NCBI GenBank assembly: GCA_029259115.1
Contig: JAPDJO010000045.1
Span: forward strand, 1-34,212
DNA: 34,212 nucleotides
From: Thermoplasmatota archaeon
GTDB lineage: Archaea; Thermoplasmatota; E2; DHVEG-1; B18-G2
Direction: 5' to 3'
Positions 30,604 through 34,212 of this stretch are shown piece by piece (positions within the stretch are counted from its first letter, which is position 1; each line of letters opens with the position of its first letter). The notes under the pieces are model-generated. The model had not been told where the DNA came from. It did not search any database and was given only the letters and a program-made list of their open reading frames with translations. The translations under genes were made by a program, and so were the position numbers.

Positions 30604-33246
30604 TCATGCTATTATGCATTCATTCCATCCACATTCCTTGCACACTAGACAGTTTCCTTCGTGAACCAGATATACACTTCCGCAAATTGGGCATCTTTCT
30701 ATTTCATCGCTTTTTCTAGATGGTGTTTTTTCTATTTCCAGCCTATCTTCAGTTGATATTATCGGAGGTTTCGCTTCGATCTCCTTCTCTCCCTCGCTTA
30801 TCTTTATGTATTTCTTCATCCACTTATTCTTCTCCAAGATCTCTTTCAGCCACTTCATCGCAAACTTGGAAGGTTTAGCCTTAACCTTTCTCTCCTTGCT
30901 TGATGGTACGCTCAAAACTTGTTTGCTCTTTGATCCATCTCTATAGACTGTAACTCCTTTGCAACCCATCGCATGCGCTATCAGATATGCCTGCTTAACA
31001 TCCTCAACGCTTACATCGTTGGGCATGTTTATTGTTTTTGATATCGAATCTGTCGTAGCTCTCTGCAAGACTGCTTGCGCAACCAAATGATCCAGCCAGT
31101 GTATATCATAGGCTGTGACAAAAACCTCCTTTATATCCTTGGGTATCTCATCTATACCTTGGACACTTCCATAGTTTTCTGCGATCTTCTTCAGTATCTC
31201 ATCGCTGTATAATCCCTTCTCCTTCAGCTTCTCCTCAAATACAGGATCAACATAGAAGAAGGATCCTGCGGTTACTTTTTTCTCATAGACGAGAGCAAAT
31301 ATTGGTTCTATTCCATTACTTGTATCTGCAATCATAGATATTGAGCCTGTCGGCGCCATCGTAGTAACCATCGCATTTCTCACTCCATACTTCCTGATCT
31401 GGTTCACTATTTTATCCCAGTCGAGGGTCCATAGCTCTCTGTGGTAGTAAAGATCTATGGGTAATTTACCTTCAGGATAATCGCTCTCGTTGAACAGAGG
31501 GAATGGACCTCTCTCCTGAGATAGTTTTATGGATTCTTCGTATGCATGATAGGTTAAATGCTCAGCCAATTTTCCCATGAACTCAAAACCTTTCTCAGAG
31601 TTATATCTTATTCCTAATTTGAAGAGGAGATCCGCAAGTCCCATGATTCCTAGACCTATCCTTCTCGTCTCCTTTGTCGCTTTATCTATCGCCTTTATTG
31701 GATAGTTGTTTATTGTTATAAGATTGTCAAGAGCTCTTGTTACAAGATGAACAACCTCTCTAAATCTATCCCAGTCAAACTTTGCTTCTCCATCCTCGAT
31801 CTTAACGAACTTGGCAACGTTTATACTTGCAAGGTTGCAGGATTCATAGGGATAGAGAGGCTCCTCTCCACACGGATTTGTAACCCTTATGGGACCATTT
31901 CTCGCATTTATTAGGACATTTCTTCTGTTTATGTTGTCAAAGAATAGCACCCCTGGATCTGCAGATAGCCATGCATGATATGCTATGGAGTGAAAGAGAG
32001 TATTTGCATTCACCTCCTTCCAAACCTTCCTTGTTCTTGGATTTATGAGAGGATAGTTTGCATTGTTAGCCAGATATTCCCAAAAATCATCCCATATGCC
32101 AACAGAGATGTTGAAATTCTCTAACACTCCTTCTCTCTCCTTGGCTGATATGAATTTCTCTACATCTGGATGCCATATCTCTAGAATGCCCATATTTGCT
32201 CCTCTTCTCACTCCTCCCTGTTTTACCACATCAGATACTGTATCGATTATCTTCATGAAAGAAACTGGTCCAGAAGCCTTTCCCATAGTTGATCTCACTA
32301 TATCTCCTTCTGGTCTTATCTTGGAGAAGTTTATTCCAGTGCCTCCGCCTGCCTTTTGTATTAAAGCTACTTCCTTGGCGGTTTCCATTATTGATTCTAT
32401 GCTGTCATCAACATCCAGGGTAAAACATGCTGAGAGCATTCCTAATCTTCTTCCAGCATTTACTAAGGTTGGGGTATTTGGAAGAAAGACTTGATTTATC
32501 ATCAGATCAAAGTATTTGTCCGCTAATTTCTCATATTTATCAAAAGCCCCGCTTTTTAGCATTGCCATCAATTCATCAAAGCTAACTTTCATCTTTCCTT
32601 CATTTGCAAGCTCCTCGTAAGCAGCTATGAATCTCTCTAGGTGCCATTTCGTCAATTGATACTTTCCTATGCTTATTTTCTTATCTAGGGCATCGAGATT
32701 GCTGAGATAAGAGGATAAGGCTATTGGGGGTTTGTAACCGCCATCTTTACTGTAAATTCTCTCGTCATACAGTATCTCTGGCAGAACCATCGTTATAGCT
32801 ACTCTCTGGAACAACTCTCTCGGAGATTCGATGACGTTTCCATCTTCATCCTTTATGAGATATCTGAATGCCAATACTCTAAGTGCATTTACACTAAATC
32901 TCTTGTCTATATCGTCTAGTTTATCCTTATTCAGTATCCTCTTCTTCTCCTCTCTTATCTCAGCCTTTTTCTGTCTGTAAAGAATGTAAGCTTTAGCAGT
33001 CTTGGCATGACCATGTTCTATCAAAACCTTCTCAACGATATCTTGGATCTCCTCTACCGTAGGTATCTTCTTTTCTCCATATCTTTTCTCGAGTTCCTTT
33101 ACAACCTGATCTGAGAGAAACTTTGCTCTTTCCCTATCCTTTCCTCCAACCGCTAGTACCGCTTTGAAGATCGCATTTGTTATCTTCTCCTGATCAAAGT
33201 CAACTATCCTTCCATCTCTTTTCTCTATCTTAGTTATTTTTACCAT
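30604..33246 (-). CDS. nrdJ: Adenosylcobalamin-dependent (class II) ribonucleotide reductase with ATP cone
   Basis: ATP cone (KRDGRIVDFD.EKI..AI), PNTPTLVNAG, LSACF, GGGTG, QGGVRRGANM, TNPCGEEPL, RRIGLGIMG, APTGSIS, SKTINMP, YRDGS, C-terminal Cys-rich tail. Confidence 0.96.
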   Translation of the reverse strand: MVKITKIEKRDGRIVDFDQEKITNAIFKAVLAVGGKDRERAKFLSDQVVKELEKRYGEKKIPTVEEIQDIVEKVLIEHGHAKTAKAYILYRQKKAEIREEKKRILNKDKLDDIDKRFSVNALRVLAFRYLIKDEDGNVIESPRELFQRVAITMVLPEILYDERIYSKDGGYKPPIALSSYLSNLDALDKKISIGKYQLTKWHLERFIAAYEELANEGKMKVSFDELMAMLKSGAFDKYEKLADKYFDLMINQVFLPNTPTLVNAGRRLGMLSACFTLDVDDSIESIMETAKEVALIQKAGGGTGINFSKIRPEGDIVRSTMGKASGPVSFMKIIDTVSDVVKQGGVRRGANMGILEIWHPDVEKFISAKEREGVLENFNISVGIWDDFWEYLANNANYPLINPRTRKVWKEVNANTLFHSIAYHAWLSADPGVLFFDNINRRNVLINARNGPIRVTNPCGEEPLYPYESCNLASINVAKFVKIEDGEAKFDWDRFREVVHLVTRALDNLITINNYPIKAIDKATKETRRIGLGIMGLADLLFKLGIRYNSEKGFEFMGKLAEHLTYHAYEESIKLSQERGPFPLFNESDYPEGKLPIDLYYHRELWTLDWDKIVNQIRKYGVRNAMVTTMAPTGSISMIADTSNGIEPIFALVYEKKVTAGSFFYVDPVFEEKLKEKGLYSDEILKKIAENYGSVQGIDEIPKDIKEVFVTAYDIHWLDHLVAQAVLQRATTDSISKTINMPNDVSVEDVKQAYLIAHAMGCKGVTVYRDGSKSKQVLSVPSSKERKVKAKPSKFAMKWLKEILEKNKWMKKYIKISEGEKEIEAKPPIISTEDRLEIEKTPSRKSDEIERCPICGSVYLVHEGNCLVCKECGWNECIIA

Positions 33247-33264: not shown

Positions 33265-33326
33265 TTGTCAGAACTCAAGATCCTCATCATAGCCAGAGGC
33301 TCAGTGAGGGTTCGCTCATCATCCGA
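33265..33326 (-). ncRNA. Box C/D methylation-guide sRNA; D guide predicted to direct Cm34 of tRNA-Leu(CAA)
   Basis: Minus strand: C box ATGATGA (33322-33316), 11-nt guide GCGAACCCTCA, D' box CTGA (33304-33301), spacer GCCTCTGGCT, C' box ATGATGA (33290-33284), 12-nt guide GGATCTTGAGTT, D box CTGA (33271-33268). All four boxes are perfect with canonical spacing. The 5' and 3' ends are approximate. Confidence 0.92.
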
Positions 33327-33345: not shown

Positions 33346-33360
33346 ATATAAAGCTTCTTT
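33346..33360 (-). promoter_or_regulatory. TATA box for the C/D sRNA (and probably nrdJ)
   Basis: Minus strand AAAGAAGC-TTTATAT (TATA at 33352-33346), ending 23 nt upstream of the C box. Confidence 0.65.
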
Positions 33361-34212
33361 ATCCCATAAATTTCCATATCGTACCTCTCCATATTCTCCT
33401 AGCCTCGTTCACATCTATGGAGATCAATTCCTTTCCCCTGCCCAAGAATTTTATCTCTTTCCCTACTGTTTTCCCTGTCATTTGGAATGGTACTTTATGA
33501 TGGGAAAGGACTCTTTCAACCTCCTCTCTGTTTTTACCCTCAACCTCTATTATCCACCTAGTGTTACTCTCCGAGAACAGCTTGAAATCATCCCTTAGAT
33601 TTTCGTTGATTCCATCTAGACTTATCTCCACTCCAATATCTCCACCTATGGAGCTTTCTGCTATCGCTATAGCTAATCCGCCATCACTTAGATCATGACA
33701 GCTTTTTATTTTACCGTTCCATATAAGCTCAAGCAAGGCATCCATACTTCTCTTCAAAAGCTCAACGTCTACTCTTGGTACTTTACCTCCTTTTAAACCC
33801 ATCACCCTGTAATACTCTGAACCACCCATTTCCCTCTCTGTTTCTCCCACAAGATAGATGTAGTTCCCATCCTCCTTGAAGTCAGAGGTTACGCATTTCC
33901 TTATATCAGGAACAATGCCTATCCCCGTTATCTGCGGCGTCGGCGGTATCGCTCCTGCTGCACTTTCATTGTAAAAACTCACGTTTCCGGAAATGAATGG
34001 TAATCCCAAAGCTTTTGCAACATCTGCAAGACCTCTACAAACCTCGTAGAAATCACCCATCACCTCTGGCTTTTCCGGATTGCCAAAGTTCAAACAATCC
34101 AGCAAACTATCGGGCTTCGCTCCAGCTGCTACGAGATTTCTGCACACTTCATCAACTGCAGAGCATGCGCCCCAGTATGGATTGAGTTCCGTGAATTTTG
34201 GGTTTATATCAG
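33359..34212 (-). CDS. purL: Phosphoribosylformylglycinamidine synthase subunit PurL, 3' part (runs off the window edge)
   Basis: Frame open to the edge (DINPKFTELNPYWGACSAVDEVCRNL...); DCLNFGNPEKPE, SGNVSFYNE, HDLSDGGL, LFSES. Confidence 0.95.
   Translation of the reverse strand, partial: DINPKFTELNPYWGACSAVDEVCRNLVAAGAKPDSLLDCLNFGNPEKPEVMGDFYEVCRGLADVAKALGLPFISGNVSFYNESAAGAIPPTPQITGIGIVPDIRKCVTSDFKEDGNYIYLVGETEREMGGSEYYRVMGLKGGKVPRVDVELLKRSMDALLELIWNGKIKSCHDLSDGGLAIAIAESSIGGDIGVEISLDGINENLRDDFKLFSESNTRWIIEVEGKNREEVERVLSHHKVPFQMTGKTVGKEIKFLGRGKELISIDVNEARRIWRGTIWKFMG

What the first reader, a model, noticed from the sequence alone, without database searches (positions are those of the whole stretch)
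33265..33326. Unannotated box C/D sRNA whose two guides both look tRNA-directed
Seen: perfect C, D', C' and D boxes with 11- and 12-nt guides. The D guide GGAUCUUGAGUU is complementary to (G/A)ACUCAAGAUCC, the anticodon arm typical of archaeal tRNA-Leu(CAA). The established D+5 rule places the 2'-O-methyl on C34, the wobble base; a guide for this site is known in Pyrococcus. The D' guide GCGAACCCUCA is complementary to GAGGGUUCG, a T-stem/T-loop sequence, and D+5 lands on G52. Inference: one RNA may bind the same tRNA-Leu at both arms, or modify a second set of tRNAs at an uncommon T-stem position.
Basis: partly seen in the sequence, partly recalled or inferred. Interest (0 to 1): 0.72.

Follow-up and report, generated by a model that had tools for sequence, protein, structure and literature searches.

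The report
Guide RNA pairing with tRNA intron
This is a real archaeal methylation-guide RNA: one arm is the known guide for the wobble base of a leucine tRNA, and the other arm matches the intron of the methionine tRNA precursor rather than a tRNA T-arm.

Summary
The box C/D sRNA is real. It lies on the minus strand (33326..33265) with four perfect boxes and 11- and 12-nt guides. It is the only such four-box hit in the 1.4-Mb genome, against 0 in 5 shuffles.

The D guide reading holds. It forms 10 Watson-Crick pairs (guide positions 2-11) with the genome's tRNA-Leu(CAA), and D+5 falls on C34. This job is already known from Pyrococcus abyssi sR47. The C'-box/D-guide/D-box motif occurs across many archaeal phyla.

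The D' reading (T-stem G52) does not hold. No predicted tRNA contains GAGGGUUCG, and T-arms reach at most 8 Watson-Crick pairs plus one G:U.

The best conserved complement lies inside the 26-nt intron of the pre-tRNA(CAU), probably elongator Met, 13 nt 3' of C34. In 40 of 42 Thermoplasmatota genomes with both genes, guide and intron pair at the same place. Compensatory double changes occur at five guide positions; position 4 is 23 C:G, 12 U:A and 0 others.

A 16S rRNA hairpin is a weaker, non-covarying second match, and the only same-genus 16S fragment lacks it.

What the intron pairing achieves (methylation of an intron G, or chaperoning) is inferred, not shown. I found no description of it in the searchable literature.

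The parts
33265..33326 (-).
   Evidence: Sequence. Rfam snoPyro_CD 32.3 bits over 33265-33326. One copy in 39 of 41 order genomes.
33316..33322 (-). C box AUGAUGA
   Evidence: RUGAUGA in all 40 aligned homologs.
33305..33315 (-). D' guide GCGAACCCUCA (11 nt). It pairs with intron nt i11-i20 of pre-tRNA(CAU) at G000:C13:9082-9182. D'+5 falls on intron G i14.
   Evidence: 10 contiguous Watson-Crick pairs. Covariation across genomes.
33301..33304 (-). D' box CUGA
33291..33300 (-). D'-C' spacer GCCUCUGGCU, forming a short hairpin (GCC/GGC) that closes the internal C'/D' motif
   Evidence: A closing helix of at least 2 bp is seen in 40 of 40 homologs and of at least 3 bp in 36 of 40. Pair types vary and spacer length runs 10-35 nt.
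33284..33290 (-). C' box AUGAUGA
33272..33283 (-). D guide GGAUCUUGAGUU (12 nt). It pairs with tRNA-Leu(CAA) positions 30-41. D+5 falls on C34.
   Evidence: own tRNA at G000:C1:46098-46183. (27 of 27 relatives). P. abyssi sR47 precedent (PMC3413156 passages).
33268..33271 (-). D box CUGA
33346..33352 (-). TATA-like UUUAUAU about 24-27 nt upstream of the sRNA 5' end; a possible own promoter (inferred)
   Evidence: Read from the sequence. Similar A/T-rich TTAAAT-like elements lie about 30-35 nt upstream of the C box in other Thermoplasmatota loci. No promoter scan was run.
30604..33246 (-). Downstream gene: ribonucleotide reductase. Its start codon is 19 nt after the sRNA's 3' end as delimited.
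   Evidence: ORF. Pfam Ribonuc_red_lgC 541.8 bits, ATP-cone 90.9 bits.
33359..34210 (-). Upstream gene: C-terminal part of an AIR-synthase-family (PurL-like) protein, open at the window end
   Evidence: ORF. Pfam AIRS and AIRS_C.

Best explanation
This is a box C/D methylation-guide sRNA of the Pyrococcus sR47 type, in a Thermoplasmatota archaeon. With L7Ae, Nop5 and fibrillarin, its D guide pairs with the anticodon arm of tRNA-Leu(CAA) and directs 2'-O-methylation of wobble C34. That step is inferred here; it was shown in vitro for P. abyssi sR47. Its D' guide is not T-arm directed. It pairs with a conserved tag (GAGGGUUCGC here) inside the canonical intron of pre-tRNA(CAU), probably elongator tRNA-Met. 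That pairing has been kept by compensatory evolution. By the N+5 rule the sRNP would methylate an intron G (i14, 17 nt 3' of C34) on the precursor or the excised intron. Shown: the pairing and its covariation. Inferred: that methylation occurs, and what it is for.
For: Anatomy and rarity. Machinery: fibrillarin (255 bits) and Nop5 (142 bits) are encoded in the genome.

D guide: 10 Watson-Crick pairs at positions 2-11 with the own tRNA-Leu(CAA), N+5 on C34, and the same in 27 of 27 relatives. sR47 of P. abyssi methylates C34 of tRNA-Leu(CAA) in vitro (PMC3413156 passages; PMC5558902 passages).

D' guide: a genome-wide scan gave 6 non-self sites with at least 10 of 11 Watson-Crick pairs. One lies in a tRNA gene, in the intron of pre-tRNA(CAU) at G000:C13:9130, again at positions 2-11.

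Across 35 genomes with both genes, the best match always lies 13-15 nt 3' of C34. Watson-Crick counts are 11 (4 genomes), 10 (18), 9 (9), 8 (3) and 7 (1).

Per-position pairs:
- Position 4: 23 C:G, 12 U:A, 0 other.
- Position 2: 6 C:G, 25 U:A, 4 other.
- Positions 5, 7 and 8: one double change each.
- Positions 6 and 9: never vary.

Mean Watson-Crick pairs are 9.6 for own pairs, 8.59 when guides are dealt to other genomes (0 of 2000 permutations reach 9.6), and 6.1 for shuffled introns. Five further genomes of other families in the class give 9-10 Watson-Crick pairs at the same place, with position 11 also covarying. In G056 the intron lacks the tag and the guide has diverged to AAGAAUUCCUU.
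Against: No RNA-level evidence for a discrete sRNA, for Cm34 or for any intron methylation. The RNA-library contigs that cover the region cannot show a transcript.

Methylating a nucleotide that is spliced out has no obvious use.

A 16S rRNA hairpin ([A/U]GAGGGUUCGG near nt 61) also matches the guide in 12 relatives. In G034 it pairs slightly better (10 Watson-Crick + 1 G:U against 10 Watson-Crick).

The window's own genome holds no rRNA. Family-level rRNA evidence rests on one partial SSU on a 3-kb contig of G001.

In G195 (another class) the guide keeps GAACCCUUU but the intron has no tag.

Related genomes are not independent, so the permutation figure overstates significance. The Met (rather than Ile2) identity of the tRNA(CAU) is by analogy only.
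Confidence: 0.72

Rival explanations
1. The D'-intron pairing is selected for binding, not for methylation. The sRNP acts as an RNA chaperone or timer on pre-tRNA(CAU). In the window's genome the target (i11-i20) overlaps two alternative structures: an intron-internal hairpin (CUCAGC/GCUGGG) that sequesters the UGGG needed for the central helix of the bulge-helix-bulge splice motif, and the outer helix G(i2):C(i20), C(i3):G(i19). Binding would shift the precursor between non-spliceable and spliceable folds.
For: RNAfold of the anticodon arm plus intron predicts the intron-internal hairpin. By hand, CUCA (32-35) pairs with UGGG (i21-24) to give a canonical 3-4-3 bulge-helix-bulge with splice sites after A37 and before A38. 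ARAGORN also calls a 26-nt intron. The identity of the N+5 nucleotide is not fixed (G in 34 genomes, A in G046). The target is removed from the mature tRNA, so a methyl group there cannot act in translation.
Against: The guide has the full geometry of a catalytic guide. Positions 3-9 are paired in all 35 genomes and position 5 is always Watson-Crick, next to a perfect D' box. Nothing prevents methylation. The structural argument is hand-made and was worked out for one genome only.
Confidence: 0.3
2. The real D' target is 16S rRNA: the 5' strand and loop of a hairpin near nt 61-71 ([A/U]GAGGGUUCGG; helix 6 by position, a recalled label). The intron match is incidental or secondary.
For: The site is present in 12 of 14 SSU 5' regions read. 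The window's guide would form 10 Watson-Crick pairs with the UGAGGGUUCGG version. In G046 the SSU hairpin reads GAGAGUC and partly follows that genome's diverged guide (7 Watson-Crick + 2 G:U by hand). G034's guide position 11 and G021's position 2 fit the SSU better than the intron.
Against: The SSU site is invariant across the order while the guide changes. CCU-type guides give only 7 Watson-Crick + 2-3 G:U on the SSU, including a G:U next to the methylation site, against 9-11 Watson-Crick on the intron. The intron has more Watson-Crick pairs in 9 of 13 comparable genomes, equal in 4 and fewer in 0. G001, of the same genus and with the identical guide, has a different hairpin there and no match in its partial SSU (best score 4.5). 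Three LSU rRNAs give nothing better than score 8.
Confidence: 0.12
3. One reading: the D' guide pairs with the T-stem/T-loop of tRNAs (GAGGGUUCG) and methylates G52, either on tRNA-Leu(CAA) itself or on a set of tRNAs.
For: 15 of 41 predicted tRNAs contain GGGUUCG. Val(CAC) and Thr(UGU) T-arms give 8 Watson-Crick + 1 G:U, and Phe and Thr(CGU) give 8 Watson-Crick. A T-stem-directed guide exists elsewhere: Pyrobaculum sR64, G51 (PMC6009581 passage).
Against: GAGGGUUCG is in 0 of 41 tRNAs. A58 blocks pairing of the guide's 5' end. tRNA-Leu(CAA) is not among the 15 best tRNA matches. Guide positions 2 and 4 vary across relatives in step with the intron, which a conserved T-arm would not explain.
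Confidence: 0.04
4. Tethering: the intron tag docks the sRNP on pre-tRNA(CAU) so that the D guide, which matches the similar anticodon loop only at positions 2-6 (ACUCA), can also methylate C34 of tRNA-Met.
For: No separate guide for C34 of this tRNA was found in the genome. The tag sits at a constant 13-15 nt from C34. The D guide pairs at positions 1-6 with GACUCA, including N+5 on C34.
Against: Only 7 Watson-Crick + 2 G:U with 3 mismatches overall. In the other families guide position 1 is G or A, which removes one pair. T. acidophilum elongator tRNA-Met is listed with Cm32 and Cm56 but no Cm34 (PMC4307237 section 2.1). Only about 5 nt would link the two target segments.
Confidence: 0.06

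Closest known systems
Pyrococcus abyssi sR47 (box C/D sRNA; D guide directs Cm34 of tRNA-Leu(CAA))
   Same: Same class of RNA, same box order, a 12-nt D guide against the same tRNA site. The substrate oligo printed in PMC3413156 contains GACUCAAGAUCC, which is the window's target apart from the last base. Thermococcus loci found with the same C'-D pattern show the family is shared.
   Different: The D' guide differs: Thermococcus loci carry CCUCGGCAG-type D' guides, for which two pattern tests found no tRNA-intron complement. Here the D'-C' spacer is a 10-35-nt hairpin, not a short loop. Rfam's Pyrococcus model scores below threshold. I could not read the primary sR47 papers (PMC92551 is not held).
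Guides for C34 of elongator pre-tRNA-Met that pair across the exon-intron junction (Pyrococcus sRNA listed in PMC7994747; Haloferax sR-tMet, Joardar 2011, recalled, not read)
   Same: A trans-acting box C/D sRNA that needs the intron-containing precursor of tRNA-Met.
   Different: Those guides cover the anticodon loop and place N+5 on C34. Here the duplex lies wholly inside the intron, 13 nt 3' of C34, and N+5 falls on an intron nucleotide.
Box C/D sRNA encoded in the pre-tRNA-Trp intron of Euryarchaeota (PMC11408192 section 3.3; PMC7994747)
   Same: It links a tRNA intron with the C/D machinery. This genome also has one: tRNA-Trp with a C/D-box intron at G000:C10:22612-22755.
   Different: There the intron is the guide and exons are the target. 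Here the intron is the target of a guide encoded elsewhere.
Pyrobaculum sR64, D guide to G51 in the T-stem of 16 tRNA families (PMC6009581 passage)
   Different: The window's D' guide does not fit T-arms as well as the intron and covaries with the intron. That study scanned mature tRNA and rRNA only, so an intron-directed guide would have been scored as an orphan.

Membership tests
Archaeal box C/D sRNA | C box RUGAUGA and D box CUGA near the ends, internal C' and D' boxes in the order C-D'-C'-D | tested here: met
   All four boxes are perfect. This is the only such hit in the genome, with 0 in 5 shuffles.
Archaeal box C/D sRNA | Guide spacers of about 10-12 nt between C and D' and between C' and D | tested here: met
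   11 and 12 nt. The D' guide is 11 nt and the D guide 12 nt in all 40 homologs.
Archaeal box C/D sRNA | Scores as a member with a curated covariance model | tested here: inconclusive
   RF00095 gives 32.3 bits, E 4.8e-05, full-length alignment, but below the gathering score of 45. Nothing at gathering thresholds.
Archaeal box C/D sRNA | Partner proteins (fibrillarin, Nop5, L7Ae) encoded by the organism | tested here: met
   Fibrillarin 255 bits. Nop5 domain 142 bits. L7Ae was not searched.
Archaeal box C/D sRNA | Expressed as a discrete RNA of about 50-70 nt bound by L7Ae | not testable with these tools
   Contigs of two RNA libraries from one sample cover the region but cannot show ends, strand or transcription.
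sR47-type tRNA-Leu(CAA) C34 guide | D guide complementary to tRNA-Leu(CAA) positions about 30-41 with N+5 on C34 | tested here: met
   Own tRNA: 10 Watson-Crick + 2 G:U. 27 of 27 relatives.
sR47-type tRNA-Leu(CAA) C34 guide | Cm34 actually present in tRNA-Leu(CAA) | not testable with these tools
   No modification data for this lineage. In P. furiosus the predicted site was not among those detected in the tRNAs analysed (PMC7668247 passage).
tRNA-Met C34 guides (sR-tMet type) | Guide places N+5 on C34 of pre-tRNA-Met | tested here: not met
   D'+5 falls on intron nt i14, 17 nt 3' of C34.
T-arm-directed tRNA guides | At least 9-10 bp complementarity to a T-stem/loop shared by tRNAs | tested here: not met
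   Best T-arm match is 8 Watson-Crick + 1 G:U. GAGGGUUCG is in 0 of 41 tRNAs.

The most novel reading that the evidence does not exclude
The intron of elongator pre-tRNA-Met in this archaeal class carries a conserved docking tag for the second guide of the tRNA-Leu(CAA) wobble-methylation sRNP. The pairing is kept by co-evolution because the sRNP controls folding, splicing or the fate of the intron. This would be the first trans-acting box C/D guide aimed wholly at the interior of a tRNA intron, and a functional reason for keeping that intron. An unchecked note of this scan (e1-6879276) reports a Lokiarchaeal Leu(CAA) guide whose second guide also pairs with a tag in tRNA introns, so the arrangement may have arisen more than once.
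Probability: 0.35. Interest if true: 0.8.

Novelty: new variant of a known kind. Interest (0 to 1): 0.6.

Why it matters
Many archaeal box C/D guides are 'orphans', and tRNA-directed sRNAs are described as using one guide while the other has no target (PMC7994747 passage). The large Pyrobaculum survey scanned mature tRNA and rRNA only (PMC6009581 passage).

Here an apparent orphan guide of the best-studied tRNA-guide type has a co-evolving partner in a tRNA intron. If that is general, some orphan guides may be explained by searching precursors.

It also offers a testable reason why the tRNA-Met intron persists, and a possible link between sRNPs and tRNA splicing.

The D guide part is ordinary. 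It extends a known Pyrococcus guide to Thermoplasmatota and, by motif, to many archaeal phyla, where Rfam thresholds miss it.

Tried and rejected
1. rRNA in the window's genome: no SSU or LSU found, so own-rRNA targets could not be scanned. Three relatives' LSU rRNAs gave nothing above score 8.

2. tRNA-Leu(GAG) variable arm (UAGGGGUUCGC: 9 Watson-Crick + 1 G:U + 1 mismatch) was the best hit among ARAGORN tRNAs. I set it aside because the intron match is better and covaries. I did not test that arm in relatives.

3. Other lineages with the same D guide:
- Thermococcus, two gapped patterns in 5 genomes: only control-level noise or non-tRNA hits.
- Nitrosopumilus, a gapped pattern in 5 genomes: 0 hits.
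- Nitrosopumilus, exact 9-mer in 2 genomes: only coding-looking sites and the sRNA's own antisense.
These tests are narrow and do not exclude intron or other targets there.

4. G195 (another class): the guide is kept but the intron has no tag. The 26 genomic sites for AAGGGTTCA showed no structured RNA apart from the sRNA's antisense. G047, G048/G176 and G145: no pre-tRNA(CAU) retrieved. The G049 tRNA locus reads N.

5. A separate guide for C34 of tRNA(CAU): 8 loose motif hits in the own genome, none with C or C' boxes.

6. D guide against pre-tRNA(CAU): nothing better than score 7.5.

7. Expression: two RNA-library runs of one sample have contigs over the region. Contigs cannot show a discrete RNA, and DNA carry-over is not excluded.

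8. MFE folding of the whole pre-tRNA did not give a cloverleaf. The splice-motif layout is therefore hand-derived.

9. Rows dropped from the guide/intron table: G040 (tRNA cut by a contig end), G005, G025, G027 and G029 (no pre-tRNA found), G010 (no sRNA found), G009 (neither).

10. Literature: six searches that ran found no paper describing a C/D guide to the interior of a tRNA intron. Subscription papers, PMC92551 (not held) and all supplements were not seen.

Full report
THE OBJECT

On the minus strand, window 33326..33265 reads UCGG-AUGAUGA-GCGAACCCUCA-CUGA-GCCUCUGGCU-AUGAUGA-GGAUCUUGAGUU-CUGA-CAA.

It sits in a 112-nt gap between two genes on the same strand. These are an AIR-synthase-family (PurL-like) gene ending at 33359 and a ribonucleotide reductase gene starting at 33246. 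A TATA-like UUUAUAU lies about 25 nt upstream (read; inference).

A strict four-box pattern hits once in the 1.40-Mb genome and never in 5 shuffles. Rfam reports nothing at gathering thresholds. With relaxed thresholds the Pyrococcus C/D model aligns end to end at 32.3 bits, below its cut-off of 45. Fibrillarin and Nop5 are encoded in the genome. The genome is a 94-contig assembly, 39% G+C, with no rRNA genes found.

CONSERVATION

The C'-box/D-guide/D-box motif occurs exactly once in 39 of 41 genomes of the order. The reversed control pattern occurs in none.

In all 40 homologs parsed, the D'-C' spacer (10-35 nt) closes into a hairpin with varying pair types: at least 3 bp in 36 of 40, and at least 2 bp in 40 of 40. 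The internal motif is therefore a stem-closed kink-turn rather than a short loop.

A scan of one genome per species found the motif in 120 listed stretches, with about 580 estimated. Records are titled Nitrosopumilaceae, Micrarchaeota, Thermoplasmatota, Thermococcus, Heimdallarchaeota, Hadarchaeota and others, plus four bacterial-labelled hits: three lack a C box upstream, and one (L160) carries a Nitrosopumilus-type sRNA.

The D' guide is lineage specific. It is CGAACC(C/U)UU-type in Thermoplasmatota-labelled records, CCUCGGCAG-type in Thermococcus and CCUAUCCCU-type in Nitrosopumilaceae.

In an even sample of 151 genomes of the phylum, the full pattern was found in 19: own order 10 of 11, other families of the class 6 of 15, other classes 3 of 125. 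'Not found' there may only mean diverged boxes.

D GUIDE

The genome's tRNA-Leu(CAA) (G000:C1:46098-46183) reads GACUCAAGAUCU at positions 30-41. Guide positions 2-11 form 10 Watson-Crick pairs, positions 1 and 12 are G:U, and the fifth target nucleotide is the first anticodon base, C34.

Of 30 loci retrieved from relatives, 28 were tRNA-Leu(CAA), all with the identical 12-mer. In 27 of 27 that also have the sRNA, positions 2-11 are Watson-Crick, while guide positions 1 and 12 vary freely. The target never varies, so this is conservation, not covariation.

The function is known. The D guide of P. abyssi sR47 directs methylation of C34 of tRNA-Leu(CAA) in vitro (PMC3413156 passages; PMC5558902 passages). 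A review lists four Pyrococcus sRNAs aimed at position 34 of Leu(CAA), Leu(UAA), Met and Trp tRNAs (PMC7994747 passages). This half of the finding is correct and already known in kind.

D' GUIDE: THE T-ARM IDEA FAILS

Among 41 ARAGORN tRNAs, none contains GAGGGUUCG. GAGGGUUC occurs only in the T-arms of Phe and Thr(CGU), where A57 follows.

The best T-arm matches are 8 Watson-Crick + 1 G:U, with both guide ends unpaired. The best tRNA match overall was the variable arm of tRNA-Leu(GAG): 9 Watson-Crick + 1 G:U + 1 mismatch. tRNA-Leu(CAA) is not among the top 15.

D' GUIDE: THE INTRON

A scan of both strands of the genome gave 6 non-self sites with at least 10 of 11 Watson-Crick pairs. Four lie in long open frames and one upstream of a gene. 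One (G000:C13:9130, CGAGGGUUCGC) lies in a tRNA gene that ARAGORN had missed.

That gene is a tRNA with anticodon CAU and a 26-nt intron after position 37. ARAGORN with introns allowed also calls a 26-nt intron, though it mislabels the anticodon.

Guide positions 2-11 form 10 contiguous Watson-Crick pairs with intron nucleotides i11-i20, the same 10-bp register as the D guide. D'+5 is intron G i14.

The tRNA is neither initiator-like nor obviously Ile2. I call it elongator tRNA-Met because T. acidophilum elongator pre-tRNA-Met has a canonical intron (PMC4307237 abstract and section 2.1). This identity is an inference.

COVARIATION

I retrieved the homologous pre-tRNA from relatives and all sRNAs. 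In 35 genomes with both (34 of the order, one with a partial tRNA, plus a Methanomassiliicoccales-titled genome, G046), the best guide match in the anticodon loop plus intron always starts 13-15 nt 3' of C34.

Watson-Crick pair counts are:
- 11 pairs: 4 genomes
- 10 pairs: 18 genomes
- 9 pairs: 9 genomes
- 8 pairs: 3 genomes
- 7 pairs: 1 genome

Per position:
- Position 4: C:G in 23 and U:A in 12, never anything else.
- Position 2: C:G in 6, U:A in 25, unpaired or wobble in 4.
- Position 7: G:C instead of A:U in G007.
- Positions 5 and 8: double changes in G046, whose guide is ACGGACUCUUG and whose intron reads AGAGAGUCCUG.
- Positions 6 and 9: never vary.

Mean Watson-Crick pairs are 9.6 for own pairs, 8.59 when guides are dealt to other genomes (0 of 2000 permutations reach 9.6), and 6.1 for shuffled introns. 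Relatives are not independent, so these numbers are descriptive only.

Five more genomes from two other families of the class give 9-10 Watson-Crick pairs at the same place, and position 11 follows too: G:C in G113, A:U in G150.

There are two exceptions. In G056 the intron is 21 nt without the tag, and the guide has diverged to AAGAAUUCCUU. In G195 (another class) the guide is kept but the intron has no tag.

In total, 40 of 42 genomes with both genes show the pairing. Rows dropped from the table are G040 (tRNA cut by a contig end), G005, G025, G027 and G029 (no pre-tRNA found), G010 (no sRNA) and G009 (neither).

THE rRNA RIVAL

All 12 SSU 5' regions read from the other two families of the order carry [A/U]GAGGGUUCGG at about nt 61, in a hairpin GAGGG-UUCGG-CCCUC.

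The window's guide would form 10 Watson-Crick pairs with the U-version. But the site does not change when the guide does. Genomes with CCU-type guides get 7 Watson-Crick + 2-3 G:U on the SSU, against 9-11 Watson-Crick on the intron.

Over 13 genomes with SSU, sRNA and pre-tRNA, the intron has more Watson-Crick pairs in 9, equal numbers in 4 and fewer in none. In G034 the SSU adds one G:U.

G001, from the window's genus and with the identical guide, has a different hairpin and no match in its partial SSU (model positions 4-828, on a 3-kb contig). G046's SSU hairpin (GAGAGUC...) partly follows its diverged guide, so a secondary rRNA role is not excluded in some lineages.

WHAT THE PAIRING MAY DO

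By hand, the window genome's precursor forms a canonical bulge-helix-bulge. C32-A35 pairs with intron UGGG (i21-24). The bulges are U36 A37|A and A A|A38. An outer helix joins G(i2):C(i20) and C(i3):G(i19).

RNAfold prefers an intron-internal hairpin, CUCAGC/GCUGGG, that would sequester the UGGG. The D' target overlaps both alternatives. Binding could therefore influence splicing, but this is inference from one genome.

The plain expectation from the N+5 rule is 2'-O-methylation of i14 on the precursor or on the excised intron. No separate guide for C34 of this tRNA was found. T. acidophilum elongator tRNA-Met is listed with Cm32 and Cm56 only.

EXPRESSION

Contigs from two RNA libraries of one sample cover the region, and DNA contigs do so too. 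This shows neither a discrete RNA nor its strand.

PRIOR KNOWLEDGE

In the six literature searches that ran and the passages read, tRNA introns appear in three roles: as hosts of C/D guides (tRNA-Trp, Nanoarchaeum tRNA-Met), as part of junction-spanning targets for C34 of tRNA-Met, or not at all.

The Pyrobaculum survey scanned mature RNAs only. I found no description of a trans guide aimed at the interior of a tRNA intron. The primary Pyrococcus papers and all supplements were not available to me.

An unchecked note of this scan (e1-6879276) reports a similar second-guide/intron-tag pairing in Lokiarchaeia.

VERDICT

The D guide interpretation is confirmed and already known. The D' guide interpretation is replaced by a co-evolving pairing with the pre-tRNA(CAU) intron, whose function remains to be tested.

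Noticed in passing
G000:C10:22612-22755 (not in the window): tRNA-Trp(CCA) gene whose 68-nt intron carries C, D', C' and D-like boxes: the classic euryarchaeal intron-encoded C/D guide. ARAGORN mislabels it Arg(cct).
   Followed up: no
L264-L271, L273-L276 (SSU rRNA of relatives, about nt 61-71): A 16S hairpin [A/U]GAGGGUUCGG-CCCUC shares the GGGUUCG core with the tRNA-Met intron tag, and G046's hairpin partly follows its diverged guide. It is unexplained whether the intron tag mimics this hairpin.
   Followed up: partly
L288 (G056) with the row for G056: In one same-class genome the tRNA(CAU) intron is shortened to 21 nt without the tag, and the sRNA's D' guide has diverged to AAGAAUUCCUU while the D guide is intact. 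This looks like joint loss of tag and guide constraint.
   Followed up: partly
L052-L167 (Nitrosopumilaceae loci) and L056, L061, L091, L103, L135, L141, L144, L170 (Thermococcus loci): The same Leu(CAA) D guide is joined to other conserved D' guides: CCUAUCCCU with a degenerate D' box in Nitrosopumilaceae, and CCUCGGCAG in Thermococcus. Simple pattern tests did not find their targets.
   Followed up: partly
G000:C1:1699-1822 and G000:C4:81621-81737: Two nearly identical intron-containing tRNA genes (ARAGORN: His gtg) that differ only by a 7-nt stretch inside a 51- versus 44-nt intron containing a GGGGCUUCGCCCC hairpin.
   Followed up: no
window 33283: In one RNA-library run, about half the contig depth at this base shows C>T on the plus strand. 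That is G>A at D-guide position 12, the unpaired position that also varies among relatives (AGAUCUUGAGU in the other family).
   Followed up: no
whole genome G000: Only one locus in the genome has four perfect C/D boxes, so any other C/D sRNAs must have degenerate internal boxes. No rRNA genes are in the assembly, and ARAGORN without intron mode finds no CAU-anticodon tRNA.
   Followed up: no
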